From contig JBGPHH010000003.1 of the NCBI GenBank assembly GCA_041484265.1, forward strand, positions 1 through 38,699: 38,699 nt of DNA, in the 5' to 3' direction. The position numbers and the translations under genes were made by a program. How positions within the stretch are numbered: position 1 is the stretch's first letter; each line of letters starts with the position of its first letter. The notes beneath the pieces were generated by a model. That model did no database searches and was not told the DNA's origin. It saw only the letters and a list, made by a program, of their open reading frames with translations. Source of the stretch: Vicinamibacteria bacterium (GTDB lineage Bacteria > Acidobacteriota > Vicinamibacteria > Vicinamibacterales > CAVVIG01). This document shows, piece after piece, positions 2 through 10,270 of this stretch.

Positions 2-1105
2 TCGATCGAGGTGTCGATCATCGAGCGCGCCTTTGACGAAGGCTGGGTGACGGCGAGGCCGCCCGCGTCCCGCACGGGCAAACGCGTCGCCGTGGTCGGA
101 TCGGGACCGGCAGGTCTCTCAGCCGCCGATCAGCTGAACCGCGCCGGCCACACGGTGACCGTGTTCGAGCGTGCCGATCGTATCGGCGGGCTGCTGCGGT
201 ACGGCATCCCCGAGTTCAAGATGGAGAAGCGGTTTCTCGACCGCCGGCTCGCTCTGATGCGCGAAGAAGGCGTCATGTTCCGCATCAACTGCAACGTGGG
301 CGTGAGCATCACGCTCGACGAGCTCCATCGCGAACACGACGCGATCGTGATTGCGGGCGGCGCGACGGCCCCACGCGACCTGCCGGTGCCGGGCCGCGAT
401 CTCAGGGGCATCCATTTCGCGATGGACTACCTGACCGAGTCGAACCAGCGGTGCGAGGGCGACGCCGTGCCGGCGCTGGACGATGACCGCGCGCTTACGG
501 CGAGGGACAAGCACGTGATCATCATCGGCGGCGGCGACACGGGCGCCGACTGTCTGGGCACGGCTCATCGTCAGGGCGCCAGCGCCATTCATCAGCTCGA
601 GCTCCTGTCGCGCCCGCCCGACGAGCGGGCGTCCGACAACCCGTGGCCGACGTGGCCGAATATCTTTCGCGTGTCCGGAGCGCACGAGGAGGGCGGCCAG
701 CGTCTCTTTTCGATCTCCACGCAGCGGTTCTCTGGCGATGCGAACGGTCGAGTCGCGGCGCTGCATGCGGTCAAAGTGGAGATGGTCAGAAGGAACGGCC
801 GACTCTCGTTCGAGCCGCTTCCGGCCAGCGAGCTCGAGCTGAAGGCGGACCTGGTCCTGCTCGCGATGGGCTTCCTCGGACCCGAGCGCAACGGGATGCT
901 CGAACTGCTGGGCGTCAAGCTGACCGATCGCGGCAACGTGTGGCGCGATGAGAACTGGATGACCAGCGTCCCCGGCGTCTTCACCGCCGGCGACATGCAG
1001 CGCGGCCAGTCGCTCATCGTGTGGGCGATCGCCGAAGGCCGAAGCGCTGCCCGCGGTGTCGACACGTACCTGATGGGCCGATCAGATCTGCCGGCCCCAC
1101 TCTAG
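2..1105 (+). CDS. gltD: Glutamate synthase small (beta) subunit, 5'-truncated by the window edge
   Basis: Frame open from nt 2 (SIEVSIIERAFDEGW). GSGPAG FAD motif, GGLLRYGIPEFKMEK, GGGDTGADC and C-terminal GDMQRGQSLIVWAIAEGR are GltD signatures. Confidence 0.95.
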   Translation, partial: SIEVSIIERAFDEGWVTARPPASRTGKRVAVVGSGPAGLSAADQLNRAGHTVTVFERADRIGGLLRYGIPEFKMEKRFLDRRLALMREEGVMFRINCNVGVSITLDELHREHDAIVIAGGATAPRDLPVPGRDLRGIHFAMDYLTESNQRCEGDAVPALDDDRALTARDKHVIIIGGGDTGADCLGTAHRQGASAIHQLELLSRPPDERASDNPWPTWPNIFRVSGAHEEGGQRLFSISTQRFSGDANGRVAALHAVKVEMVRRNGRLSFEPLPASELELKADLVLLAMGFLGPERNGMLELLGVKLTDRGNVWRDENWMTSVPGVFTAGDMQRGQSLIVWAIAEGRSAARGVDTYLMGRSDLPAPL

Positions 1106-1184
1106 TAAAGTCGGGAGGACGCTTGAGGAAGGGTGTGCTGATTAGCTCGTAAGGCGAAGTCCGTCCGCCGAGCGCTGCTGACGA

Positions 1185-2237
1185 TCACTTGCTCAGCGAG
1201 GCCATGTCGATTACAAAGCGATACTTCACGTCGCTTCGGAGCATTCTCTCGTAGGCCGCGTCGATCGTCTGGATCGGGATCTGCTCGATATCCGAAATAA
1301 TATTGCGTTCGGCGCAGAAGTCCAGCATCTCCTGTGTCTCGGGAATGCCGCCGATGATCGAGCCGGCGATCCGGCGCCGCTTGAGGAGCAGGTTGAAGAT
1401 GGCGGGAGACGGGTGCGGCTGTGCCGGCGCGCCAACGAGCACAAGCGTTCCGTCGCGCTTGAGGAGCGACGTGTACGCGTCGAGGTTGTGCGACGCTGCG
1501 ACCGTGTCGAGGATGAGGTCGAAACTGTTCGCGTGCTTCGCCATCGCCTCGGCGTCCTTCGAGATGACGACCTGGTCTGCGCCCAGTCGCTTCGCGTCCG
1601 CCGCCTTGCCGGGTGAGGTGGTGAACAGCACCGTGTGGGCGCCGAAGGCGTGAGAGAACTTGACGCCCATGTGTCCGAGGCCGCCGAGCCCGACGATGCC
1701 GACCTTCGTTCCTTTGGCCGCGCCCCAGTGTTTGAGTGGCGAGTAGGTCGTGATCCCTGCGCACAGCAGTGGTGCGGCCCCGGCCAGATCGAGCTTTTCG
1801 GAAACGCGCAGGCAGAATCCCTCCTCAACAACGATCTGGCTGGAGTAGCCGCCGTAAGTCACCTTGCCCGGCAGGTGTTTGTCGGGGCTGTTATAGGTGA
1901 GGGTCATCCCGTTATCGCAGTACTGCTCGAGGCCGGCCCGACAATCCCCGCAGCTTCCGCACGAATCAACCATGCAGCCGACCGCCGCACGGTCGCCGAC
2001 CTTGAAGCGCGTCACCTCCAGACCGACCTTCGTCACTCGACCGACGATCTCGTGCCCGGGCACGCAGGGGTAGACGGTACCCGGCCACTCGCTGCGAGCG
2101 GTGTGCAGGTCGGAGTGGCAGACGCCGCAAAAGAGAATGTCGAACTGGACGTCGCGCGGCCCGGGTTCCCGGCGCTCGAGGCGGAATGGGCCAAGGGGCG
2201 ACGTCGGGTCGAAGGCGGCGTACGCGCGTGATTGCAT
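1185..2237 (-). CDS. Zn-dependent NAD(P)-linked alcohol dehydrogenase (cinnamyl-ADH/YahK-like MDR family)
   Basis: CGVCHSD and GHEIVG catalytic Zn motifs, CGSCGDC...YC structural Zn, APLLCAGITTYSPL, GLGGLG, C-terminal DVKYRFVID. Confidence 0.93.
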   Translation of the reverse strand: MQSRAYAAFDPTSPLGPFRLERREPGPRDVQFDILFCGVCHSDLHTARSEWPGTVYPCVPGHEIVGRVTKVGLEVTRFKVGDRAAVGCMVDSCGSCGDCRAGLEQYCDNGMTLTYNSPDKHLPGKVTYGGYSSQIVVEEGFCLRVSEKLDLAGAAPLLCAGITTYSPLKHWGAAKGTKVGIVGLGGLGHMGVKFSHAFGAHTVLFTTSPGKAADAKRLGADQVVISKDAEAMAKHANSFDLILDTVAASHNLDAYTSLLKRDGTLVLVGAPAQPHPSPAIFNLLLKRRRIAGSIIGGIPETQEMLDFCAERNIISDIEQIPIQTIDAAYERMLRSDVKYRFVIDMASLSK

Positions 2238-2273
2238 CGGGGCGCCGATTCTATCAGAACCGATCGCGCCCTT

Positions 2274-3317
<1,044 letters not shown>

Positions 3318-3323
3318 AGTGCC

Positions 3324-3548
3324 TCAAGCCTCGCGCAGTGTGTCGAACTCGGGAATCTCCTGCCGCAGCGCCGCCTCGACGCCCACGTGGAGCGTCATGT
3401 GAGCGCTTGGACAGCCGGCGCAGAGCCCGGTGAGTCGCACGTCCGCGGAATTGCCGTGGACCGCCACCAGGACAATGTCCCCTCCGTCGGCCTGCAGAAA
3501 CGGCCGCACACGATTGAGCACCGCTTCGACCTGCTCTCTTGCGATCAT
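3324..3548 (-). CDS. NifU C-terminal (Nfu) domain Fe-S carrier protein
   Basis: VRPFLQADGGDIVLV...RLTGLCAGCPSAHMTL; CxxC Nfu motif; AGGAG RBS at 3557-3561. Confidence 0.92.
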   Translation of the reverse strand: MIAREQVEAVLNRVRPFLQADGGDIVLVAVHGNSADVRLTGLCAGCPSAHMTLHVGVEAALRQEIPEFDTLREA

Positions 3549-3567
3549 TTGCGATCTCCTTGGTCAC

Positions 3568-3591
3568 GGTCCGCCTCAAGGCGGACGCTAC
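3568..3591. repeat. REP-like palindrome (GTAG family) GGTCCGCCTCAAGGCGGACGCTAC
   Basis: Perfect 7-bp stem GTCCGCC-TCAA-GGCGGAC, preceded on the minus strand by GTAG. Resembles the 'VRLK(A/P)D(T/A)T'-encoding intergenic repeat I recall from Vicinamibacteria. Single copy in this window. Confidence 0.6.
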
Positions 3592-3605
3592 GGCGGCCCG
3601 TAGCG

Positions 3606-3620
3606 GCAACGGCCGTGCCG
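3606..3620 (-). promoter_or_regulatory. Sigma54 (-24/-12) promoter for the nfu-bEBP operon
   Basis: Minus strand CGGCAC-GGCCG-TTGC, exact GG-N10-GC spacing, about 58 nt upstream of the nfu ATG. Confidence 0.75.
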
Positions 3621-3734
3621 GCCGAAGATCGCCGAATTCCCGTAAATCTGGCGGGATTCCGACAGCACGCCGCAGGGAGCGATTAGGGGGAGGGGATTAT
3701 TCCGCAGCGCGAGGGGAGAAACTCGCGTCCACGC

Positions 3735-5837
3735 CTACCAGTAGTAGGTGAGCCGGCCCGACAGCGTGTTGGCGGTGTACGGACGGGCAAGGTACCCCAT
3801 CATCAGAAAGGACGGCTGCGCAAGGCTCGTCAGCGTCGACGCGCTCTGCGCGAAGTCATTGACGATATAGCGGTCGTACCAGTAGACGACGCCGGCAGCC
3901 AGCTTCGGAGTGAAATGGTATCGAACGTCCAGCGTGCCGCGCTGCAGCTCGTTCGACACCACTGGCAGCTGAACGACGGGCGCCAACGTGGTGTTGGGCG
4001 CCAACCCGTACAGGTACTGCGATTCCGCGCGGCTGTAGTCGTACGCCATCCTCACATCGGTCTTCGGCCACGCCTTGAGCAGATCGAGGGATGCCGACAG
4101 CGTTTGCACGGTGTCGGTGCTGTTGGTCGTCCAATCCCGCGTTGGATCGTTGAACTGCACCCCCGGATTCGCCTGCCTCGACGCTTGGAGCGCCGTATAC
4201 CACTCTCGCTCGAACGTGATGCCCATCGACACGGCGTCGCGCGGCACGAAATCCACGCCGGCGGAGTACGCATGATTGTTGTTGCTTCGAAGACCGAATC
4301 CGGAACCGGGACGATCCTCGCTGCCGACTGACACAGAGGCGTTCACCGCAAGTTGCGAGAGAGGCGTCACCTGTGCAATGGCTGAGAATCGATCGGCCGT
4401 CCGGTCTGAAATATCGAACTGGCGCAGAGATACCTGCTCGCCTATCTCGTCGAGCGCCTGCTCGTCGAACCCCGAACCGACACGCTTGGCGTGCTCGTAC
4501 ACGCCCCTCAGCGTCAACCAGGTCACGGCCGTCGTGTCGGCCGATACACGGAACGTGTCTTCCGTCGTGGTATCGAAGTACCGGACGGTCTGATCAACTT
4601 GCTCGCGTGTATACCCGGCGCGGAACGACCCGTACTTGAATGGCATCAGCATCAGGTCGGCGTCGAACGTCCGCCGCGTGTAGCTGAGGGGACTCGTGCC
4701 GCCGCCCGCGAACGCGGCGACGGTTGTGTCGTACGACACGGTGGTCGGGACGTTAAAGACGGCCGTCCGGTTCTTGTAATCGTAAGACCGGTAGCGCGCG
4801 GTGTAGTACACGAGATCCGTCGGTCTCGAGTTGAAGCTGTAGTTCATGCTCGTGATCCGCGCGTCGGCATTCGCGGTCGGCCGATCGAGCGGAATCGTCG
4901 CGAGCGCGCTGTTGATGGTGAATGGGATCAGCGGATCGTTCTGGGACCAGTCGGCCACGGAAATGTACGCCGTCGCGTGGCTGCGCGCCGGCAGCGAAAG
5001 CGACCCCATGGCGCTGCCCGTGTGCATGTCGCTGTTGGGCCACAACGACATCCGACCCTGCAAGGGTCCCGCTGCCGCCGAATCGGTCGCCCGAAGCGGA
5101 TTGTCCCAGACGAGCGTGCTGACGTTGTTGCTGAAGAACGATCCGTCGTACGCCAGACGCGCCATGGTCCGCCCGTTGGCCCACTCAATCCCCGCGCCGA
5201 GATCCGTCGTTCTCGTATCGACCGGCACGGGAAGCTCGACGGCGTCGCTGAAGCCGAAGGTGCCGGCCCACGGCTGATTCCCGGTTTTCGCCGTGCTCTT
5301 GAGCGATATCTTGAAATCGACGTGCTCGGTGGCGCTGTACGTCATCTTGAAATCTGCGACGTCGCGCCTGACGCGCAGATCAAACGGGTGCGCCTGAGAA
5401 ACCGCCGAGCCGAGCGTGGTGGTGCCCCCCTGCAGGCCTGCCTGAATCGCGTCGTCGATGCGCAGCACGCCTCTCGAGGTCGAGAACAGGGTCTTAGTGT
5501 CCTCGTTGAAAAATAACGGGGTCTGATTCCAGTCGAAGGAGACCTTGAACCGGCCGAACTCGTTCCAGGCGGCGGCGTAGTGCTGGTCGAGGTACCCGAC
5601 ATGATCGGCCTGCAGGCTGAACCGGCGCATCTCGGTGTCTTTCCCGAACGTGAACGCGTCGAGCGTGAGCCCGTTGCGCGTGTCCCGATAGCGCTGGCTT
5701 CGCGCCTCGTCCGAACCAGCGGCAAACGCCGTCGCGCGGCCGCCGAAATCGACGGAGTTCGCCGGCAGGCCCTGCCCCAGCACACTTGCTGGGAGCAGGA
5801 GGAGCGCGGCAGCGATCAGACAAAGAGTGGTCCGCAT
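3735..5837 (-). CDS. mtrB: MtrB/PioB-family decaheme-associated outer-membrane beta-barrel porin
   Basis: About 700 aa. Signal peptide MRTTLCLIAAALLLLPASVLG (ATG 5837, AGGAG 7 nt upstream), ELPVPVDTRTT, WDNP and LWPNSD motifs, beta-strand periodicity, C-terminal aromatic YYW. Lies directly after a decaheme cytochrome. Confidence 0.88.
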   Translation of the reverse strand: MRTTLCLIAAALLLLPASVLGQGLPANSVDFGGRATAFAAGSDEARSQRYRDTRNGLTLDAFTFGKDTEMRRFSLQADHVGYLDQHYAAAWNEFGRFKVSFDWNQTPLFFNEDTKTLFSTSRGVLRIDDAIQAGLQGGTTTLGSAVSQAHPFDLRVRRDVADFKMTYSATEHVDFKISLKSTAKTGNQPWAGTFGFSDAVELPVPVDTRTTDLGAGIEWANGRTMARLAYDGSFFSNNVSTLVWDNPLRATDSAAAGPLQGRMSLWPNSDMHTGSAMGSLSLPARSHATAYISVADWSQNDPLIPFTINSALATIPLDRPTANADARITSMNYSFNSRPTDLVYYTARYRSYDYKNRTAVFNVPTTVSYDTTVAAFAGGGTSPLSYTRRTFDADLMLMPFKYGSFRAGYTREQVDQTVRYFDTTTEDTFRVSADTTAVTWLTLRGVYEHAKRVGSGFDEQALDEIGEQVSLRQFDISDRTADRFSAIAQVTPLSQLAVNASVSVGSEDRPGSGFGLRSNNNHAYSAGVDFVPRDAVSMGITFEREWYTALQASRQANPGVQFNDPTRDWTTNSTDTVQTLSASLDLLKAWPKTDVRMAYDYSRAESQYLYGLAPNTTLAPVVQLPVVSNELQRGTLDVRYHFTPKLAAGVVYWYDRYIVNDFAQSASTLTSLAQPSFLMMGYLARPYTANTLSGRLTYYW

Positions 5838-5853
5838 GTGCATGCTCCTGCCG

Positions 5854-6816
5854 TTATCGAAGGAAGGCGTTCCCCGCCGGACTGTTCGACCCATGAATCT
5901 GAGCGTGGCAGTTCACGCAGCCACGTCCGATCAGCCGGCTGCTGCGGGCCACGAGCTGGGTGCCGTCGTAGATGGTCGAGGGATGTTTCGTGCCAATGTG
6001 GCATCGCTGACAGAGCATCGGCAGTTTCGCCACCAGCATTCGCTCGTTGTTCGATCCGTGCGGATCGTGGCAGGTATTGCACGCCTCGCGAACCGGCGCG
6101 TGGTCCCAGAGGTACGGACCGCGCTTCTCGGTGTGACAGCTGACGCACGCTTCATTCACCCAATTCCCCACCTTGAGCAAGCGGACGTTGGTGGATCCGT
6201 GCGGGTTGTGACACGCCGTGCAGTCCATCTTGCCTTCGCGAACCGGCATATGCCCGAAGCGCTGCAGCTTGGCGACTTCCGTCTTGTGGCACCCGGCGCA
6301 GGTCGCAATGACCGACACCGCCTTGAGCTGTGCCTTCGCAGCCTTCGGGCTATGGACCGAGTGACACGTCACGCACGACAGGTTACGGGCATCGTGCGTA
6401 CTCCCATTCCAATTCGCGTGGTCCCCTCGGTTGTGGCAGGTCAGACAGGTCGCAGAGATGTCGCGGGCCGCCATCGCGGTAAATCGCTTGATCTTTTCTG
6501 GCTCCCCGCCGCTGTCAACGTGCGCCCGACCCGGCCCGTGACACGTTTCACACCCCTGGGTTGCCGCCGGAGAACGGGGATTCTCGGTCTTGCCGTGCAA
6601 TGTCTTCCGGAGACTTTGGCCCTCGGTGTCATGGCATGTCACGCACACCGCCGTACCAACATAGTCGTTGGTCTGGGCCGCCGCTGGCCACCCGCCGCGC
6701 AGGCCGGCCGCGAGCGCCCATGCAAACCCACTGGCGATGAGCAACCGTAGAGGAATTCCGATGATGTGTCTTCGCATACGCGTCCGTAACAACTCGAACA
6801 GATTTGGAGCACTCAT
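5854..6816 (-). CDS. mtrA: Periplasmic decaheme c-type cytochrome, MtrA/DmsE/PioA/MtoA family
   Basis: Exactly 10 CxxCH motifs (CVTCH, CETCH, CLTCH, CVTCH, CAGCH, CTACH, CVSCH, CNTCH, CQRCH, CVNCH); EKRGPYLWDHAPV; C-terminal IHGSNSPAGNAFLR; signal peptide. Confidence 0.95.
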   Translation of the reverse strand: MSAPNLFELLRTRMRRHIIGIPLRLLIASGFAWALAAGLRGGWPAAAQTNDYVGTAVCVTCHDTEGQSLRKTLHGKTENPRSPAATQGCETCHGPGRAHVDSGGEPEKIKRFTAMAARDISATCLTCHNRGDHANWNGSTHDARNLSCVTCHSVHSPKAAKAQLKAVSVIATCAGCHKTEVAKLQRFGHMPVREGKMDCTACHNPHGSTNVRLLKVGNWVNEACVSCHTEKRGPYLWDHAPVREACNTCHDPHGSNNERMLVAKLPMLCQRCHIGTKHPSTIYDGTQLVARSSRLIGRGCVNCHAQIHGSNSPAGNAFLR

Positions 6817-8231
6817 TTCAGAGCGCTGATGTAAGCCATGAGCAGCCTGAGATCGTCGTCCGGGATATCGAGCGGCATCATTCCACCGTCGGCCATCTTC
6901 TTGGTGGGCATCTTGAGGAGTCGCTGCAGCTCGTCGGCCGGGTGTTTGGCCGCGATGTCAATGAGCGCCGGGGCACCCTGCGTGCCTTGTCCGGCGTCGC
7001 CGTGACACGCGTCGCAGGATTGCGCGTTGTAGACGGCCTTGCCGCGCGTCATGGCGGGATCGACAAGAGCCGCTTTGGCCGTCTTGAGTGAGGCTGGCGA
7101 CTCTTCCGGTGCGAACGGCTCCGCCGTAAACCGCCGATCGGCTTCCCGCTGCGCAGCCAGCTGTTCCGCGATCGCAGGGTCACGACGATCCTCCATCGCG
7201 CTCAGCACGCCCAGAAGCACGAGCGACAGCAGTACGGCCGCAAACGCGCCGACGGTGACGGGGCGTTTCGAGGGAGCCCGCTCCGGGCTCCGGTCGAAGA
7301 ACGGCAGCCCCACGAACAGGAGGGCGAGCACGGCCGGGATAATCACAATCCCGACGACCGCGCTCGAGCCCTTCCAGTACTTGAGCCACTGGAACACTGG
7401 CACGTAGTACCACTCCGGCCGCGGCAGAAAACGCGTGTCGGCAGGATTGGCCTCGGGTCCAAGTTCGGCCGGCCACAACCAGGCGATCGCTCCGAGGCAG
7501 ACGATGATCGTCAGCGCGAACCCGACGTCCATCAGCACCTGACGCGGATAGAACAGCTCGGTCCGCTGACGGCCTGCGTCGATCGACGGTGGGCCGGCAG
7601 CCCCGGCCTTCCGGAACAGGTACACGTGAAGTCCGACAAATGCGAAGATAGCCGCCGGAATGAGGAAAACGTGGGCCACGAAGAACCGCGAGACTGTCAG
7701 CGTGCCCATGTCGGCGCCGCCCCGGACCAGCCGTTGCAGCCCGGCACCAATAAGGGGCACTTCACCGAGGATGTTGGTGCCGACGGCGGTTGCGAAGTAC
7801 GCCTTCTGATCCCAGGGCAGCAGGTAGCCGGTGAACGCCATGCCGAGCATGAGCGCGAGCAGCACGCATCCAGCCATCCAGAGGATCTCGCGGACCCCCT
7901 TATACGAGCCATAGATGACCGTCTGCGCCACGTGCAGCAGCATGACGATGATCATGGCGCTCGAGCCATAGGCGTGAAGACTTCGCAGAAAGGATCCCGA
8001 CGAGACTTCCTTGACGATGTACGCGACCGTCACGTGGGCGTGATCCGCGGATGGGACGTAGTAGAGCGCGAGGAACACGCCCGTGATGACTTGGGAAATG
8101 AAGATCAGCAGCAGGCCGGACCCGAACACATAGGCGAACCGCGCCCCACCGGGAATGGGTTCGCCGAGCGCCTCGTGCAACAAGCGCCGGACGCCTGTGC
8201 GGCGATCCAGCCAGTCGACGAAGCGGCTCAC
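6813..8231 (-). CDS. Cytochrome b (bc/b6 family) fused to a C-terminal monoheme cytochrome c
   Basis: Four heme-b His (SLH...LLH; VAH...GLH), FTGYLLPWDQKAYFA, PEWY Qo motif, C-terminal CDACH and GMM. GTG 8231 overlaps the Rieske stop (GTGA); its TGA overlaps the mtrA ATG. Confidence 0.92.
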   Translation of the reverse strand: MSRFVDWLDRRTGVRRLLHEALGEPIPGGARFAYVFGSGLLLIFISQVITGVFLALYYVPSADHAHVTVAYIVKEVSSGSFLRSLHAYGSSAMIIVMLLHVAQTVIYGSYKGVREILWMAGCVLLALMLGMAFTGYLLPWDQKAYFATAVGTNILGEVPLIGAGLQRLVRGGADMGTLTVSRFFVAHVFLIPAAIFAFVGLHVYLFRKAGAAGPPSIDAGRQRTELFYPRQVLMDVGFALTIIVCLGAIAWLWPAELGPEANPADTRFLPRPEWYYVPVFQWLKYWKGSSAVVGIVIIPAVLALLFVGLPFFDRSPERAPSKRPVTVGAFAAVLLSLVLLGVLSAMEDRRDPAIAEQLAAQREADRRFTAEPFAPEESPASLKTAKAALVDPAMTRGKAVYNAQSCDACHGDAGQGTQGAPALIDIAAKHPADELQRLLKMPTKKMADGGMMPLDIPDDDLRLLMAYISALK

Positions 8232-8737
8232 GCGACGATCTCTCGCGTCGCGACCAGCTGGCGGAAGTACTGGTAGCGCACTTTCAGGCGCCCGGCATCG
8301 ACTGTGCTGTCGAGCTCGTCCATCGCACGAGGTGGAGGTCCGGACACCAACGCGCCGTCTTCCCCGAAGACGCCAGCATGGCACGGACAGACAAACTGTT
8401 TTCGGCTCTCGTTCCAGGCCACGCTGCATCCGAGATGCGGGCATACGGCGGACAGCACTCGCAGACGGCCCTGCGCAGTTCGCATCACGTACACCGGTTT
8501 GGTGGATACCATCTTCCGCCAGCCGTCGCGCTGTTCGACCTCAACGAGTACTTTCATGGGCGCGGCCAGCGAGGCCATGTCGTTTGCAGACCCGACATCG
8601 GACCAGACAACGTCCCCCGTCTTGCGCCAGAGAGGATATGACACGAATCTGGCCAGCGGCGCGGCCAGCAACGCGCCGACGCTCGATGCGCCGAGTGCCA
8701 GGAGCGCACCGAGAAACGACCGCCGTTCAGCGCTCAC
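8228..8737 (-). CDS. Rieske [2Fe-2S] subunit of a quinol:cytochrome c oxidoreductase
   Basis: Tat motif RRSFL, TM helix, CPHLGC and CPCH boxes, GPPPR. Confidence 0.93.
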   Translation of the reverse strand: MSAERRSFLGALLALGASSVGALLAAPLARFVSYPLWRKTGDVVWSDVGSANDMASLAAPMKVLVEVEQRDGWRKMVSTKPVYVMRTAQGRLRVLSAVCPHLGCSVAWNESRKQFVCPCHAGVFGEDGALVSGPPPRAMDELDSTVDAGRLKVRYQYFRQLVATREIVA

Positions 8738-8740
8738 CGC

Positions 8741-9073
8741 TCACTTCCCTGTGAGCGACTGCAGGTAAGCGACCAATGCGTCGACGTCGTCCTTCTTCAG
8801 GTCGAATTGCTTCATCGCAGGCGTGCGCGTCGCCTTGGTCTTCTCAGCCATCGTTTTCGCATCAATGATCCAATGGCGAATGTCTTCAGCCGACACCTTA
8901 CGCCCGACGTCGTCCAGCGGACCTTTCTTATTGCCCTTGTCGCCAACCGAGTGGCAAAGGGTACATTTCTGGTCGACAAACACCTTTTCCCCTCTGGCCT
9001 TTGCGTCCTGAGCGGACGGTATTGCCACTGCCAGAGCCAAAAATCCGGCAGCGAGAAACCCCGTGCGAACCAT
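8741..9073 (-). CDS. Small periplasmic monoheme class I cytochrome c
   Basis: Signal peptide MVRTGFLAAGFLALAVAIPSAQ (ATG 9073, GGAGG RBS), CTLCH, GPLD, distal Met in PAMK. Confidence 0.88.
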   Translation of the reverse strand: MVRTGFLAAGFLALAVAIPSAQDAKARGEKVFVDQKCTLCHSVGDKGNKKGPLDDVGRKVSAEDIRHWIIDAKTMAEKTKATRTPAMKQFDLKKDDVDALVAYLQSLTGK

Positions 9074-9246
9074 GCAAGCCTCCTCAGTCACGTCGGGCTG
9101 AGCAATTTGACGGACCATGCTCAACCCGGGGTGGCAGACAGGATACACTGCCCACGATTCGATTGGGGGGCGGACTTTTCCCCGCGCATCCGCGAAATCG
9201 CCCACCTCGGACTTGTTGAACCACGGCGGTGTACGGTGTGCACCTC

Positions 9247-9262
9247 AGGTACGTGAATTGCT
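9247..9262 (+). promoter_or_regulatory. Possible sigma54 promoter upstream of the DHOD-like gene
   Basis: AGGTAC-GTGAA-TTGC with GG-N10-GC spacing. It is very close to the ATG, so the predicted +1 would fall after the RBS. Confidence 0.35.
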
Positions 9263-9277
9263 CAGGGAGCTGTGAAG

Positions 9278-10270
9278 ATGGATACCGCGACCTCGTATCT
9301 CGGGTTACGTCTGCCCCATCCCTTTATCGCGGGCGCGTGTCCGCTCGGGTGGCACCTCGACACCATCAAACGGCTCGAAGACAGCGGAGCCGCGGCCATC
9401 GTGCTCCCGTCGCTGTTCGAAGAGCAAATCACGCTGGCGACGGAACGCCGCATCCGACATATGGACCCGTTTGAAGAGGAATTCGCAGGGGCCCTCGCGA
9501 GCTATCCGCCGGCCAGCGACTACACGCTGGCACCCGACCAGTATGCGGAACACATCACGCGTGCGAAGCAGGCCGTCAAGATCCCAATCATCGGCTCGCT
9601 CAACGGCACGTCGGCTGAGTCGTGGCTGCGGTTCTCCCGCATCATCCAGCAGGCGGGCGCCGACGCACTCGAGTTGAACATCTACGAAGTGGTCACCGAT
9701 CTCGACATGCCGGGCTCCGTCGTCGAGCACCAGTTGTCTCACATCGTCAGGGACCTGAAAGACGCGATCAAGATCCCGGTTGCAGTCAAACTGGCACCAT
9801 TCTTTGCGGCCTTCGGCAACGTGGCGCGGCAGCTCGATGACGCCGGCGCTGACGCGCTGGTGCTGTTCAACCGCTTCTACCAGCCCGATATCGACATCAA
9901 GACGATGACGGCGTCGCCGATGGTTGAGCTGTCGACCAGTGCCGAGCTCCTTTTGCGATTGCGATGGCTCGCCATTCTCCACGGCCGCGTTCGAGCGGGA
10001 CTCGCCGTCACCGGCGGCGTGTCCACACCGAACGACGGCATCAAGGCGATCCTCGCGGGTGCCGACGCGGTACAAATGGTGTCGGCAATCCTGCGACACG
10101 GGCCCCCGTACCTGGCCGCCATGCGGCAAGGCCTTGAGCGCTGGATGGAATGGCACCGGCTGGCGAGCCTCAGCGAGGTGAAGGGTCGCGTGAGCCTGGC
10201 GCGCGCCGCCGATCCGGCCGCGTTCGAGCGTGCGAACTACATTCGGACGCTGCAGAGCTGGAAGTGCTGA
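9278..10270 (+). CDS. Dihydroorotate dehydrogenase-like FMN protein (DHOD_like)
   Basis: YLGLRLPHPFIA, PSLFEEQI, IPIIGSLNG, ALELNIY, VAVKLAP, LFNRFYQPDIDI, TGGV, AGADAVQMVSA. ATG 9278 with GGGAG RBS. Confidence 0.88.
   Translation: MDTATSYLGLRLPHPFIAGACPLGWHLDTIKRLEDSGAAAIVLPSLFEEQITLATERRIRHMDPFEEEFAGALASYPPASDYTLAPDQYAEHITRAKQAVKIPIIGSLNGTSAESWLRFSRIIQQAGADALELNIYEVVTDLDMPGSVVEHQLSHIVRDLKDAIKIPVAVKLAPFFAAFGNVARQLDDAGADALVLFNRFYQPDIDIKTMTASPMVELSTSAELLLRLRWLAILHGRVRAGLAVTGGVSTPNDGIKAILAGADAVQMVSAILRHGPPYLAAMRQGLERWMEWHRLASLSEVKGRVSLARAADPAAFERANYIRTLQSWKC

What the first reader, a model, noticed from the sequence alone, without database searches (positions are those of the whole stretch)
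3735..9073. MtrAB-type porin-cytochrome conduit with a dedicated Rieske/cytochrome b-c complex
Seen: one tightly coupled operon (3-nt gap, GTGA and ATGA overlaps, 16-nt gap) of cyt c, Rieske, cyt b::cyt c, decaheme and porin, with no MtrC/OmcA, DmsAB or CymA/NapC gene. Established: in Shewanella Mtr and Sideroxydans Mto the quinone link is a NapC/NirT-type protein, and MtrAB without MtrC typifies PioAB/MtoAB. Inference: a self-contained quinone-to-cell-surface wire whose inner-membrane step could run a proton-motive Q-cycle. That would mean energy-conserving extracellular electron transfer (Fe/humics reduction, or electron uptake by reverse flow) in a probable acidobacterium.
Basis: partly seen in the sequence, partly recalled or inferred. 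Interest (0 to 1): 0.85.

Follow-up and report, generated by a model that had tools for sequence, protein, structure and literature searches.

The report
Rieske/cytochrome b complex wired to MtrAB conduit
A soil and sediment acidobacterium carries one operon that joins a respiratory Rieske/cytochrome b complex to an outer-membrane electron conduit, which suggests an unusual and possibly energy-conserving way of exchanging electrons with minerals.

Summary
Window 9073..3735 (minus strand) holds five tightly packed genes: monohaem cyt c, Rieske protein, cyt b fused to a monohaem cyt c, an MtrA/MtoA-type decahaem, and an MtrB/PioB porin. The organism is a Vicinamibacterales MAG, 72% complete.

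This bc complex is accessory: the genome has two other Rieske/cyt b loci. The five-gene order recurs in both other genomes of the genus, in one further MAG, and in all 7 metagenome loci with cyt b at least 67% identical.

In sister genera a membrane pentahaem NapC/NirT/NrfH-like cytochrome sits between the same small cyt c and the decahaem. That protein was not found in the three genomes of this genus. A second, unrelated cyt b clade, with a nonahaem c, also lies beside MtrAB pairs in the order.

So the link between the menaquinone pool and the conduit is well supported by comparison. The direction of flow, Q-cycle energy conservation and expression are untested.

A 2026 MAG paper notes petB/petC inside such clusters in passing. 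I rate it a new variant of a known kind, interest 0.62.

The parts
8741..9073 (-). Periplasmic monohaem class I cytochrome c (110 aa) with a Sec-type signal peptide. It has one CXXCH motif and an invariant Pro-x-Met, the probable sixth haem ligand.
   Evidence: Pfam PF00034 8.8e-11. Hydrophobic N-terminus. Alignment of 16 homologues shows CxxCH and P.M invariant. It is 49-64% identical to the cyt c next to decahaem-porin pairs in other Vicinamibacterales genera, but only 29-37% identical to the cyt c heading Acidobacteriaceae bc modules.
8228..8737 (-). Rieske 2Fe-2S subunit (169 aa) with a twin-arginine signal/anchor and both cluster-binding boxes. The Ser and Tyr that follow box II in b6f/bc1 are replaced by Gly and Phe.
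   Evidence: PF00355 7.4e-13. The best NCBIfam hits are b6f PetC types, all below cut-off. PDB alignments to b6f Rieske show CPCH-A-G-V-F against CPCH-G-S-Q-Y. Sequence read.
6813..8231 (-). Cytochrome b (b6 plus subunit IV in one chain, 7 predicted TM helices) fused to a C-terminal periplasmic monohaem cytochrome c domain (472 aa).
   Evidence: PF00033 2.9e-46, PF00032 1.5e-11, PF13442 1.3e-08. Haem b ligands are H86/H100 and H187/H202, PEWY is at 272-275, and CXXCH is at 406. PDB cyt b 8smr_I 4.8e-48. ExtP model 187 bits, below its cut-off of 290.
5854..6816 (-). MtrA/MtoA/DmsE-family periplasmic decahaem cytochrome c (320 aa, 10 CXXCH).
   Evidence: TIGR03508 263.8 bits, above the cut-off of 192.2. 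Ten CXXCH motifs. Matches MtrA of the solved Mtr complex, 6r2q_A, at E 1.5e-59 over residues 54-317.
3735..5843 (-). MtrB/PioB-family outer-membrane beta-barrel porin (702 aa; alternative ATG at 5837), with a signal peptide and a C-terminal aromatic residue.
   Evidence: PF11854 2.7e-86, model positions 5-635 of 635. 6r2q_B by sequence 3.8e-12. AlphaFold model pLDDT 81.2, pTM 0.75. Foldseek top hit 6r2q_B at E 7.2e-35, TM 0.79/0.85; every other listed hit has TMq 0.42 or less and TMt 0.48 or less.
9074..9271 (-). Upstream intergenic region, shared with the divergent DHO_dh-like gene. The promoter is presumably here, but none was identified.
   Evidence: The sigma-70 scan found nothing here. 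The sigma-54 -24/-12 search was inconclusive.
2274..3317 (-). Sigma-54-dependent activator (AAA+ and HTH_8 domains, no N-terminal sensor domain in this frame), downstream of the porin. It is a possible regulator, and its membership of the system is uncertain.
   Evidence: PF00158 9.9e-68, PF02954 2.6e-11. Conserved downstream of the porin in G001 (88% identity) but not found in the fetched G002 locus.

Best explanation
The five genes encode one electron path between the menaquinone pool and the cell surface. The inner-membrane module is an accessory Rieske/cytochrome b complex with its cytochrome c fused to cyt b. It exchanges electrons with a small periplasmic monohaem cyt c. That cyt c exchanges them with an MtrA-type decahaem sheathed in an MtrB-type porin.

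The Rieske/cyt b pair takes the role played by NapC/NirT-type cytochromes (CymA, ImoA) in Shewanella and Sideroxydans, and by a NapC/NirT/NrfH-like pentahaem in sister genera.

I commit to forward operation as the most likely mode. Menaquinol is oxidised at Qo, with a Q-cycle that conserves energy. Electrons leave through cyt c and the conduit to a fairly high-potential extracellular acceptor, such as Mn(III/IV) oxides, chelated or poorly crystalline Fe(III), or oxidised humics, when oxygen is short.

Shown: gene identities, operon packing, conservation of the linkage, the slot equivalence, and accessory status. Inferred: physical electron transfer between the parts, the direction, and Q-cycle coupling. 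My odds are about 0.8 that the bc complex and the conduit work in one system, and about 0.4 that it runs as the outward series wire described.
For: (1) Tight operon: 3-nt gap, two 4-nt overlaps, then a 10- or 16-nt gap.

(2) The same five-gene order occurs in G001 and G002 (same genus; the cyt b gene is 86-87% identical), in MAG locus L015 (1 of 80 genome-contig loci), and in 7 of 7 metagenome loci whose cyt b is at least 67% identical (L118-L124 of 80 loci). L161 shows a divergent head-to-head version. G002 shares none of the flanking genes tested, so there the five genes sit in a different context.

(3) Slot equivalence. In G010 and G020, which hold the closest porin orthologues outside the genus (59-61%), the order is small cyt c, membrane pentahaem, decahaem, porin. 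The pentahaem scores PF03264 24.2 bits and NrfH model 49.9 bits. That pentahaem lies beside decahaem-porin pairs in 7 of the 20 fetched relatives' loci and in L124. It was not found in G000, G001 or G002, which are 72, 97 and 100% complete. PF03264 was not found there either.

(4) Chimeric make-up. The small cyt c groups with conduit-associated cyt c of Vicinamibacterales (49-64%). Rieske and cyt b::c group with stand-alone modules of Acidobacteriaceae (53-57% and 60-64%). The close cyt b::c type was found in 2 of 401 sampled genomes of the class.

(5) A second cyt b clade (SH-aLRT 100), followed by a nonahaem c, lies 0.3-8 kb from decahaem-porin pairs in 7 loci. This includes a same-strand decahaem-porin-Rieske-cyt b-nonahaem run in G034.

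(6) The complex is accessory: two more Rieske/cyt b loci sit on C195 and C238.

(7) Catalytic residues are intact: four haem-b His, PEWY, and both Rieske boxes.

(8) For the forward direction: Rieske/cyt b complexes are natively quinol oxidases (established knowledge). RuBisCO was not found in 5 of 5 genomes, including the three of the genus, so no need for uphill flow is apparent. Futalosine-pathway menaquinone genes are present in 3 of 3 genomes.
Against: - There are no expression data, and no RNA run was listed. No promoter or terminator was identified.
- Both characterised MtrAB homologues that lack MtrC and an external reductase (PioAB, MtoAB) take electrons up (passages).
- The cluster's make-up is that of the Mto cluster of an iron oxidiser.
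- A Rieske centre, even a low-potential one, is expected to be more positive than most haems of known MtrA/MtoA (+100 to -400 mV quoted for MtoA). Outward flow therefore needs a strongly oxidising acceptor, or unusually positive haems.
- No extracellular cytochrome was found to reach solids.
- L124 and G008, G014 and G015 carry both a pentahaem and a Rieske/cyt b cluster, so the two modules are not simply alternatives.
- The MAG is 72% complete.
- In 10 of the 20 fetched loci no Rieske/cyt b lies near the conduit, though some contigs are short.
Confidence: 0.4

Rival explanations
1. This is an Mto/Pio-like electron uptake system with the bc complex run in reverse. Extracellular Fe(II), Fe(II) minerals or other reduced solids are oxidised by the decahaem in its porin. 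The small cyt c carries the electrons inward. The Rieske/cyt b complex uses proton-motive force to push some of them uphill into the menaquinone pool, as proposed for the petI bc1 complex of Acidithiobacillus ferrooxidans.
For: - Conduit without MtrC, as in PioAB and MtoAB.
- The gene content parallels mtoA-mtoB-monohaem cyt c-inner membrane cytochrome (passages).
- A dedicated bc1 complex for uphill flow is an accepted model in At. ferrooxidans (passages).
- Near-identical DNA occurs in sediment metagenomes.
Against: - RuBisCO was not found in 5 of 5 genomes, including all three of the genus. Other carbon-fixation pathways were not tested.
- By my reckoning (inference), reverse flow into menaquinone costs as much proton-motive force as a quinol-dependent reductase would return.
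- The closest relatives of this Rieske/cyt b::c are stand-alone modules of Acidobacteriaceae, with variable neighbours such as cytochrome bd.
Confidence: 0.2
2. The two modules are parallel inputs to one cytochrome c. The conduit oxidises extracellular Fe(II) and the bc complex oxidises menaquinol in the normal forward direction. Both reduce the same small cyt c, which feeds a terminal oxidase or a periplasmic reductase encoded elsewhere. The bc complex and the conduit are co-expressed because they share a carrier, not because electrons pass from one to the other.
For: - The small cyt c is the common denominator of all cluster types in the order: it lies beside conduit pairs, beside the pentahaem, and at the head of the second bc clade in G029.
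- CxxCH and Pro-x-Met are invariant in it, the usual marks of a His/Met class I cytochrome c of aerobic chains (the ligand rule is recalled).
- This model needs neither reverse bc operation nor an uphill step from the Rieske centre to the decahaem.
Against: - No oxidase gene lies in or beside the operon in the window.
- A NapC/NirT-like protein in the same slot in sister genera is more usual in series wires.
- His/Met monohaem cytochromes can be low-potential (PmcA, -143 mV).
Confidence: 0.2
3. The adjacency has no functional link. The Rieske/cyt b::c complex is an ordinary respiratory complex III that was inserted by transfer next to an unrelated conduit.
For: The Rieske/cyt b::c module is a common stand-alone unit in other Acidobacteriota: 78 of 80 genome-contig loci show Rieske beside cyt b, and only 1 of the 80 has a conduit. 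The module looks recently acquired in this genus.
Against: - It was inserted exactly between the conduit's own cyt c and the decahaem, with overlapping stop and start codons.
- The arrangement is kept across cyt b divergence down to 67% identity.
- A second, unrelated cyt b clade is also linked to conduits.
- Housekeeping-type complexes exist elsewhere in the genome.
Confidence: 0.1

Closest known systems
Mto cluster of Sideroxydans lithotrophicus ES-1 (mtoA, mtoB, mtoD, imoA/cymA, pmcA)
   Same: It has a decahaem plus MtrB-type porin without MtrC. A small periplasmic monohaem cytochrome c and an inner-membrane quinone-reactive module sit in the same cluster (passages).
   Different: Here the inner-membrane module is a Rieske/cyt b::c complex, not a NapC/NirT-type tetrahaem. 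The small cyt c shows no sequence match to MtoD among solved structures at E up to 1, and PmcA could not be compared. The host is a heterotroph-like acidobacterium in which RuBisCO was not found. Sister genera with the pentahaem resemble Mto more closely.
PioABC of Rhodopseudomonas palustris TIE-1
   Same: An MtrAB-type conduit without MtrC plus a small periplasmic carrier. Electrons are thought to reach the bc1 complex (passages).
   Different: PioC is a HiPIP, not a cytochrome c. The bc1 genes are not in the pio operon. PioA carries a long N-terminal extension (recalled), whereas this decahaem is 320 aa.
MtrCAB with CymA of Shewanella (solved Mtr complex 6R2Q)
   Same: The decahaem matches 6r2q_A at 1.5e-59 and the porin model matches 6r2q_B at TM 0.79/0.85.
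   Different: MtrC/OmcA, CymA and multihaem periplasmic carriers were not found. The quinone link is a Rieske/cyt b complex.
Geobacter sulfurreducens extHIJKLMNOPQS
   Same: [quoted passage not shown] The cyt b here scores 187 bits on the ExtP model.
   Different: The score is below the ExtP cut-off of 290. ExtI is a small porin unrelated to MtrB. There is no rhodanese and no selenocysteine cytochrome. The cytochromes differ in haem number.
petI operon (cycA1-sdrA1-petA1B1C1) of Acidithiobacillus ferrooxidans
   Same: It is a second, dedicated bc complex, encoded with its own periplasmic cytochrome c and tied to exchange of electrons with extracellular iron (passages).
   Different: The outer-membrane component there is Cyc2, in another operon. 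Its cyt c1 is a separate subunit, its cyt c4 is dihaem, and an sdrA gene is present. It uses ubiquinone and works at acid pH.
Porin-cytochrome clusters with petB/petC in karst MAGs (FEMS Microbiol Ecol 2026, PMC13264449)
   Same: The paper describes small decahaem cytochromes next to 25-36-strand porins, and says that several clusters also contain cytochrome b and Fe-S subunit genes (section 18 read in full).
   Different: It is only a one-sentence mention. There is no analysis of which bc type, of conservation, of the slot shared with NapC/NirT-like genes, or of function. The taxonomy of those MAGs is in a figure and a supplementary table that I could not see.
mto operon of the Gallionellaceae sp. 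in culture KS, with 'Cytbc'
   Same: The mtoAB genes are followed by two small periplasmic cyt c genes and an inner-membrane cyt b fused to a c-type cytochrome, proposed as the quinone link (passage).
   Different: That b domain is cytochrome b561-type with a dihaem c, and there is no Rieske protein. It is therefore not a Q-cycle complex.

Membership tests
MtrAB/MtoAB/PioAB-type porin-cytochrome conduit | Periplasmic decahaem c-type cytochrome of the MtrA/DmsE family (10 CXXCH, about 300-350 aa) | tested here: met
   10 CXXCH motifs. TIGR03508 263.8 bits, above the 192.2 cut-off. 6r2q_A 1.5e-59 over nearly full length.
MtrAB/MtoAB/PioAB-type porin-cytochrome conduit | MtrB/PioB-family large beta-barrel porin encoded directly after the decahaem | tested here: met
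   PF11854 291 bits over model positions 5-635 of 635. The model matches 6r2q_B at TM 0.79/0.85 and E 7.2e-35. The gap to the decahaem is 10-16 nt. The stricter TIGR03509 scores 219.9, below its 240.05 cut-off.
MtrAB/MtoAB/PioAB-type porin-cytochrome conduit | [quoted passage not shown] | not testable with these tools
   This needs proteoliposome, electrode or genetic assays.
MtrCAB (Shewanella type) | Extracellular MtrC/OmcA-family decahaem beside mtrAB | tested here: not met
   PF22113 found nothing in the own genome, which is 72% complete. No MtrC-like gene appears among the scanned window ORFs.
Mto cluster (Sideroxydans type) | Inner-membrane NapC/NirT-type multihaem quinone oxidoreductase (CymA/ImoA) in the cluster | tested here: not met
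   PF03264 was not found in G000, G001 or G002. The sister-genus pentahaem was not found in these three genomes. Its place is taken by Rieske plus cyt b::c.
Mto cluster (Sideroxydans type) | Small periplasmic monohaem cytochrome c homologous to MtoD or PmcA | tested here: inconclusive
   A monohaem class I cyt c is present. No MtoD entry appears among PDB sequence matches at E up to 1. No PmcA sequence was available for comparison.
Rieske/cytochrome b complexes (bc1/b6f superfamily) | Rieske subunit with both 2Fe-2S binding boxes and a Tat signal/anchor | tested here: met
   PF00355. The boxes align with b6f Rieske proteins. The twin-arginine motif was read.
Rieske/cytochrome b complexes (bc1/b6f superfamily) | Cytochrome b with four haem-ligand histidines on helices B and D, and the PEWY Qo motif | tested here: met
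   H86, H100, H187, H202 and P272-Y275 are invariant in 18 homologues. They lie on predicted TM helices. PF00033 and PF00032 match.
Rieske/cytochrome b complexes (bc1/b6f superfamily) | c-type cytochrome as third redox subunit | tested here: met
   A monohaem c domain is fused to the C-terminus of cyt b, after a seventh TM helix. This is not a cyt c1 or cyt f, so it is a variant architecture.
Rieske/cytochrome b complexes (bc1/b6f superfamily) | Proton-motive Q-cycle | not testable with these tools
   It is inferred only from intact Qo residues and haem ligands.
Geobacter ExtOP-type bc module | Score above the curated ExtP model cut-off | tested here: not met
   NF040969 187.2 bits, cut-off 290.

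The most novel reading that the evidence does not exclude
In this lineage a Q-cycle Rieske/cytochrome b complex has replaced the non-electrogenic NapC/NirT-type quinol dehydrogenase of an MtrAB-type conduit. Extracellular respiration itself then pumps charge at the quinol-oxidising step, which the CymA-type route does not do. This would restrict the pathway to high-potential acceptors such as Mn(III/IV) oxides. It would also make common soil Vicinamibacterales facultative mineral respirers.
Probability: 0.3. Interest if true: 0.8.

Novelty: new variant of a known kind. Interest (0 to 1): 0.62.

Why it matters
In the studied EET models named here (Shewanella CymA, Sideroxydans ImoA) the quinone step is a NapC/NirT-type cytochrome, which by recalled knowledge conserves no energy at that step. 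A Rieske/cyt b complex hard-wired to an MtrAB-type conduit would be a different solution. It could conserve energy in the outward direction, or it could be a built-in uphill pump in the inward direction.

The comparison within one bacterial order makes the question testable. The order holds a pentahaem version, a Rieske/cyt b::c version, a version with both, and a Rieske/cyt b/nonahaem version. These natural variants can be expressed side by side in a Shewanella chassis, as was done for ImoA.

It also bears on the ecology of Vicinamibacterales. These are abundant soil and sediment bacteria, known from culture as aerobic heterotrophs (recalled). The conduit porin was found in 30 of 41 related genomes searched.

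Tried and rejected
**Promoters and terminators.** The sigma-70 and terminator scan of 2000-9600 gave counts at or below the shuffle expectation, with nothing at the operon ends.

**Sigma-54 promoter.** G002 has a 9-of-12 match and G001 an 8-of-12 match upstream of the cyt c gene. The window's copy has one extra base between the GG and GC elements, so I do not claim a sigma-54 promoter.

**Expression.** No RNA holder was listed for the stretch, so co-transcription could not be examined. The reads laid were contigs only.

**MtoD homology.** No match to MtoD appeared among solved structures at E up to 1.

**Membership of the ExtP family.** The score is below the cut-off.

**Autotrophy as a reason for uphill flow.** RuBisCO large subunit was not found in 5 of 5 genomes. 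Other carbon-fixation pathways were not tested.

**Menaquinone route.** The classical MenB model scored below its cut-off in 3 of 3 genomes. The futalosine-pathway family was above its cut-off in 3 of 3.

**MtoA versus MtrA versus PioA versus DmsE phylogeny.** It was not done.

**Complex prediction.** It was not used: transient carrier pairs and the textbook MtrA-MtrB pair are poor uses of the job.

**Literature.** Five searches found no paper that analyses a Rieske/cyt b complex in an MtrAB operon. The nearest is the one-sentence mention in PMC13264449. In PMC8805035 the words bc1, Rieske and cytochrome b occur 0 times. In PMC6295460 they also occur 0 times. In PMC11475568 all six search terms occur 0 times. 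Subscription journals are not in the library.

**Supplements and figures.** Supplements were closed and I did not ask for them. Fig. 6 and Table S2 of PMC13264449 may show the same arrangement in named taxa.

Full report
**1. What is there**

The minus strand of window 9073..3735 carries five ORFs in one direction.
- A 110-aa monohaem cytochrome c (9073..8741).
- A 169-aa Rieske protein (8737..8228).
- A 472-aa cytochrome b with a C-terminal monohaem cytochrome c domain (8231..6813).
- A 320-aa decahaem cytochrome (6816..5854).
- A roughly 700-aa porin (5843 or 5837..3735).

The spacings are a 3-nt gap, a GTGA overlap, an ATGA overlap, and a 10- or 16-nt gap.

Family assignments are strong:
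- cyt c: PF00034.
- Rieske: PF00355.
- cyt b::c: PF00033, PF00032 and PF13442.
- decahaem: TIGR03508, 263.8 bits against a cut-off of 192.2.
- porin: PF11854, 291 bits. The narrower TIGR03509 porin model scores 219.9, just under its cut-off of 240.05.

The decahaem aligns over almost its whole length with MtrA of the solved Mtr complex (6r2q_A, 1.5e-59). The porin matches MtrB by sequence (6r2q_B, 3.8e-12). An AlphaFold model built on 21 homologues (pLDDT 81.2, pTM 0.75) has 6r2q_B as its top structural match. That match has E 7.2e-35 and TM 0.79/0.85. Every other listed hit has TMq 0.42 or less and TMt 0.48 or less.

**2. Anatomy of the bc part**

The cytochrome b has seven predicted TM helices, so the fused c domain ends up in the periplasm.
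- The haem-b histidines (H86/H100 on helix B, H187/H202 on helix D) are invariant in 18 homologues. So is the PEWY motif at 272-275.
- The histidine spacing, 13 and 14, is the b6-like one (recalled rule).
- The Rieske protein has a twin-arginine signal/anchor and both cluster boxes.
- Aligned with b6f Rieske proteins, the Ser and Tyr after box II are Gly and Phe here. In mutational work that I recall but did not read here, loss of these hydrogen-bond donors lowers the cluster potential, as in menaquinol-oxidising complexes.
- The genus has futalosine-pathway menaquinone genes: PF02621 is above its cut-off in 3 of 3 genomes.
- The small cyt c and its 15 aligned relatives keep CxxCH and a Pro-x-Met.

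**3. Organism and genome context**

The window is a whole contig (C3) of a MAG of 4.05 Mb in 353 contigs, 72% complete. Proteins 86-88% identical to the cyt b::c are named Acidobacteria / Vicinamibacterales by their sources.

The genome holds other copies of both module types.
- A second decahaem-porin pair lies on C192 (44% and 26% identity).
- A Rieske/cyt b locus on C195 sits behind a GltD-like NAD(P)/FAD/FeS oxidoreductase and before a tetrahaem c.
- A Rieske/cyt b locus on C238 has Rieske, b6, subunit IV and an octahaem c.

The C238 type recurs in nearly all of the 41 relatives, so it looks like the housekeeping complex. The operon's complex is therefore accessory.

PF03264 (NapC/NirT) and PF22113 (MtrC) were not found in the genome. 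PF03264 was also not found in the two other genomes of the genus, which are 97% and 100% complete.

The rest of the window is unrelated. One side holds redox enzymes and a sigma-54 activator. The other holds a lipid or polyene-type biosynthetic cluster.

**4. Is the adjacency conserved?**

It is, at several levels.

(a) Both other genomes of the genus have the same five genes in the same order and packing. The cyt b gene is 86-87% identical, Rieske 78%, cyt c 72-76%, and the decahaem 70-81%. G001 shares the flanking genes, but none of the tested flanks was found in the G002 locus.

(b) Of 80 loci in species-representative genomes that encode a relative of the cyt b::c, 78 have a Rieske gene beside it. 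Only one has the conduit: L015, a Vicinamibacterales MAG with cyt b 71% identical and all five genes present.

(c) Of 80 metagenome loci, all 7 with cyt b at least 67% identical (L118-L124) have the five-gene order. Four of them end inside the decahaem or the porin gene, and L118 and L119 look like the same sequence from two samples. L161 (64%) has porin and decahaem head-to-head with cyt c, Rieske and cyt b::c. The loci at 61-65% have no conduit. 58 of the 80 have at least 1 kb of downstream flank.

(d) In a sample of 401 genomes of the class (163 genera), the close cyt b::c type (E no higher than 1e-120) was found only in G000 and G001. G002 was not drawn.

**5. How the operon was built**

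- In Acidobacteriaceae loci the unit cyt c, Rieske, cyt b::c stands alone with varying neighbours: cytochrome bd, a UbiA-family gene, a cupredoxin.
- A tree of 37 cyt b sequences puts the four operon-linked ones in one clade (SH-aLRT 99). That clade nests inside this acidobacterial cyt b::c group (98).
- The operon's small cyt c is only 29-37% identical to the cyt c of those modules. It is 49-64% identical to the cyt c that accompanies decahaem-porin pairs in other Vicinamibacterales genera.
- So Rieske and cyt b::c appear to have been inserted between a conduit's own cyt c and its decahaem.

What occupies that place elsewhere? In G010 and G020 (closest porins outside the genus, 59-61%) the order is small cyt c, a 400-460-aa membrane-anchored pentahaem, decahaem, porin. 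The pentahaem has a NapC/NirT/NrfH-like N-terminal part: PF03264 scores 24.2 bits against a cut-off of 24.1 in G020 but 19.5 in G010, and the NrfH model scores 49.9 and 43.0, below its cut-off.

The same pentahaem lies beside the pair in 7 of the 20 fetched relatives' loci (L098, L099, L100, L103, L104, L109, L110) and in metagenome locus L124. It was not found in G000, G001 or G002. In G013 the cyt c is followed directly by the decahaem.

L124 has both the pentahaem and Rieske/cyt b::c. G008, G014 and G015 have the pentahaem plus a second kind of bc cluster nearby. The modules can therefore coexist as well as replace each other.

**6. A second, independent bc-conduit linkage**

The porin was found in 30 of 41 related genomes. 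In 10 of those 30, a cyt b hit lies within 10 kb of a porin hit on the same contig. This count is my own comparison.

I then fetched 20 loci around porin homologues, and I chose 10 of them because of that co-location.
- 19 of the 20 have the decahaem beside the porin. The exception is cut by the contig end.
- 11 have a small cyt c at least 49% identical.
- 7 (L095-L101) carry a different cyt b clade (34-37% identical, SH-aLRT 100). In the four examined (L095, L096, L097, L099), three have a 9-CXXCH ORF after the cyt b. In L096 only a weak multihaem-like match (24%) was seen there.
- In G034 the run decahaem, porin, Rieske, cyt b, nonahaem lies on one strand, with a gap of about 0.3 kb.
- L102 has yet another cyt b type, grouping with the own genome's C195 and C238.

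Two or three cyt b lineages beside the same conduit family argue for function rather than accident.

**7. Independent assemblies and expression**

Near-identical DNA occurs in three further sediment-metagenome runs of three studies, with word shares of 0.62-0.94. A contig of run X2 bridges porin start, decahaem and cyt b with no differences. No RNA holder was listed, so co-transcription remains an inference from the packing.

**8. Mechanism**

What the evidence supports well (my odds about 0.8) is that the Rieske/cyt b::c complex, the small cyt c and the conduit belong to one system, with the bc complex as the link to the menaquinone pool.

Direction is open. I favour forward operation (0.4): menaquinol, Qo, Rieske, fused c, small cyt c, decahaem, then outside. 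The reasons:
- This is what Rieske/cyt b complexes do natively.
- RuBisCO was not found in the genus, so no need for uphill flow is visible.
- The nearest relatives of the module are stand-alone complexes in other Acidobacteriota.

The difficulty is thermodynamic. A Rieske centre is expected to be more positive than most haems of known MtrA/MtoA (MtoA +100 to -400 mV). The acceptor would therefore have to be strongly oxidising, such as Mn(III/IV) oxides or chelated Fe(III). These potentials are recalled.

Against my choice:
- Both characterised conduits without MtrC take electrons up.
- The cluster resembles the Mto cluster.

The rivals are:
- uptake with the bc complex in reverse, as in the petI model (0.2);
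- parallel inputs of the bc complex and the conduit into the shared small cyt c (0.2);
- mere adjacency (0.1).

**9. Comparison with the literature**

I read passages or one section, not whole papers.
- Baker et al. 2022 found MtrCAB in Acidobacteriia, with no inner-membrane quinone oxidoreductase nearby. They do not mention bc1, Rieske or cytochrome b.
- PioA/PioB homologues are reported to be widespread in Acidobacteria.
- The Geobacter extHIJKLMNOPQS cluster joins a porin-like protein, cytochromes, a Rieske protein and a cyt b.
- The KS-culture Gallionellaceae mto operon is followed by a cyt b561::dihaem c fusion.
- A June 2026 paper on karst MAGs states that several porin-cytochrome clusters contain petB and petC (section 18 read in full). 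Its figure and supplementary table, which I could not see, may show this very arrangement.
- The 2026 Mto study gives the current model: PmcA at -143 mV as partner of ImoA and MtoA, and MtoD at +155 mV probably serving an oxidase.

On that basis this is a new variant of a known kind. The parts are known families and the co-occurrence has been noted once in print. The slot equivalence with NapC/NirT-type genes, the chimeric origin, the recurrence with several cyt b lineages and the accessory status are, as far as my five searches show, not described.

**10. Limits**

- There is no transcript, protein or activity evidence.
- The MAG is incomplete.
- Absences rest on family or protein searches in 1-3 genomes.
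- The count of co-located loci depends on contig length.
- The tree is a quick search with SH-aLRT only and has long branches.
- The rules on haem ligands and Rieske potential are recalled.

Noticed in passing
G000:C195 (locus L114) 3543-7997: A second Rieske/cyt b locus lies directly behind a GltD-like NAD(P)-binding FAD/4Fe-4S oxidoreductase (Pyr_redox_2, Fer4_20, Fer4). It is followed by an ORF with 4 CXXCH motifs. The make-up recalls the bc complexes with an NAD(P) oxidoreductase subunit discussed for anammox bacteria (recalled).
   Followed up: partly
G000:C192 (locus L113) 3076-6482: A second decahaem plus MtrB/PioB porin pair (44% and 26% identical to the operon's) sits on an 8-kb contig. 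Upstream is a methyltransferase-like ORF, and no cyt b lies on the contig. Contig ends prevent knowing whether it neighbours C195.
   Followed up: partly
L093 (G001:C43) 4313-6442 versus window 3735-5843: Within the genus the operon is mosaic. Against G001, cyt b is 87% identical, Rieske 78%, cyt c 76% and decahaem 70%, but the porin is only 45%. This is lower than the porins of other genera with the pentahaem version (56-60%). It suggests replacement or fast divergence of the porin gene.
   Followed up: no
L124 (metagenome contig) 595-7899: One cluster carries both inner-membrane modules. Its order is small cyt c, NapC/NirT-like pentahaem, second small cyt c, Rieske, cyt b::c, decahaem, porin. 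It is a possible intermediate between the two operon types.
   Followed up: partly
window 13958-38697: This is a long biosynthetic cluster. It holds two ketoacyl synthases, an MMPL-family exporter, a lipid A-type acyltransferase, an AMP-binding enzyme, B12-binding and other radical SAM enzymes, a halogenase-like flavoprotein and a large protein with a MucB/RseB-like domain. It looks like an aryl-polyene or unusual-lipid pathway (a guess from recalled gene sets).
   Followed up: no
window 2274-3609 and L093 2786-4053: The sigma-54 activator downstream of the porin starts almost at its AAA+ domain and has no sensor domain in frame. An overlapping ORF in another frame (2980..3609) has its upstream part conserved in G001 (63-67%). 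Whether this is a separate small gene, a frameshift or an alternative-frame artefact of high G+C was not resolved.
   Followed up: no
L095, L097, L099 (G034, G023, G008): The second conduit-linked bc clade has a 440-490-aa ORF with 9 CXXCH motifs directly after cyt b. This is a Rieske/cyt b complex with a nonahaem c subunit.
   Followed up: partly
L050 and L053 (Chloroflexia and Anaerolineales MAG loci): Relatives of the NapC/NirT-like pentahaem (36-37% identical) lie within about 1.2-3 kb of Rieske/cyt b genes in two Chloroflexota loci.
   Followed up: no
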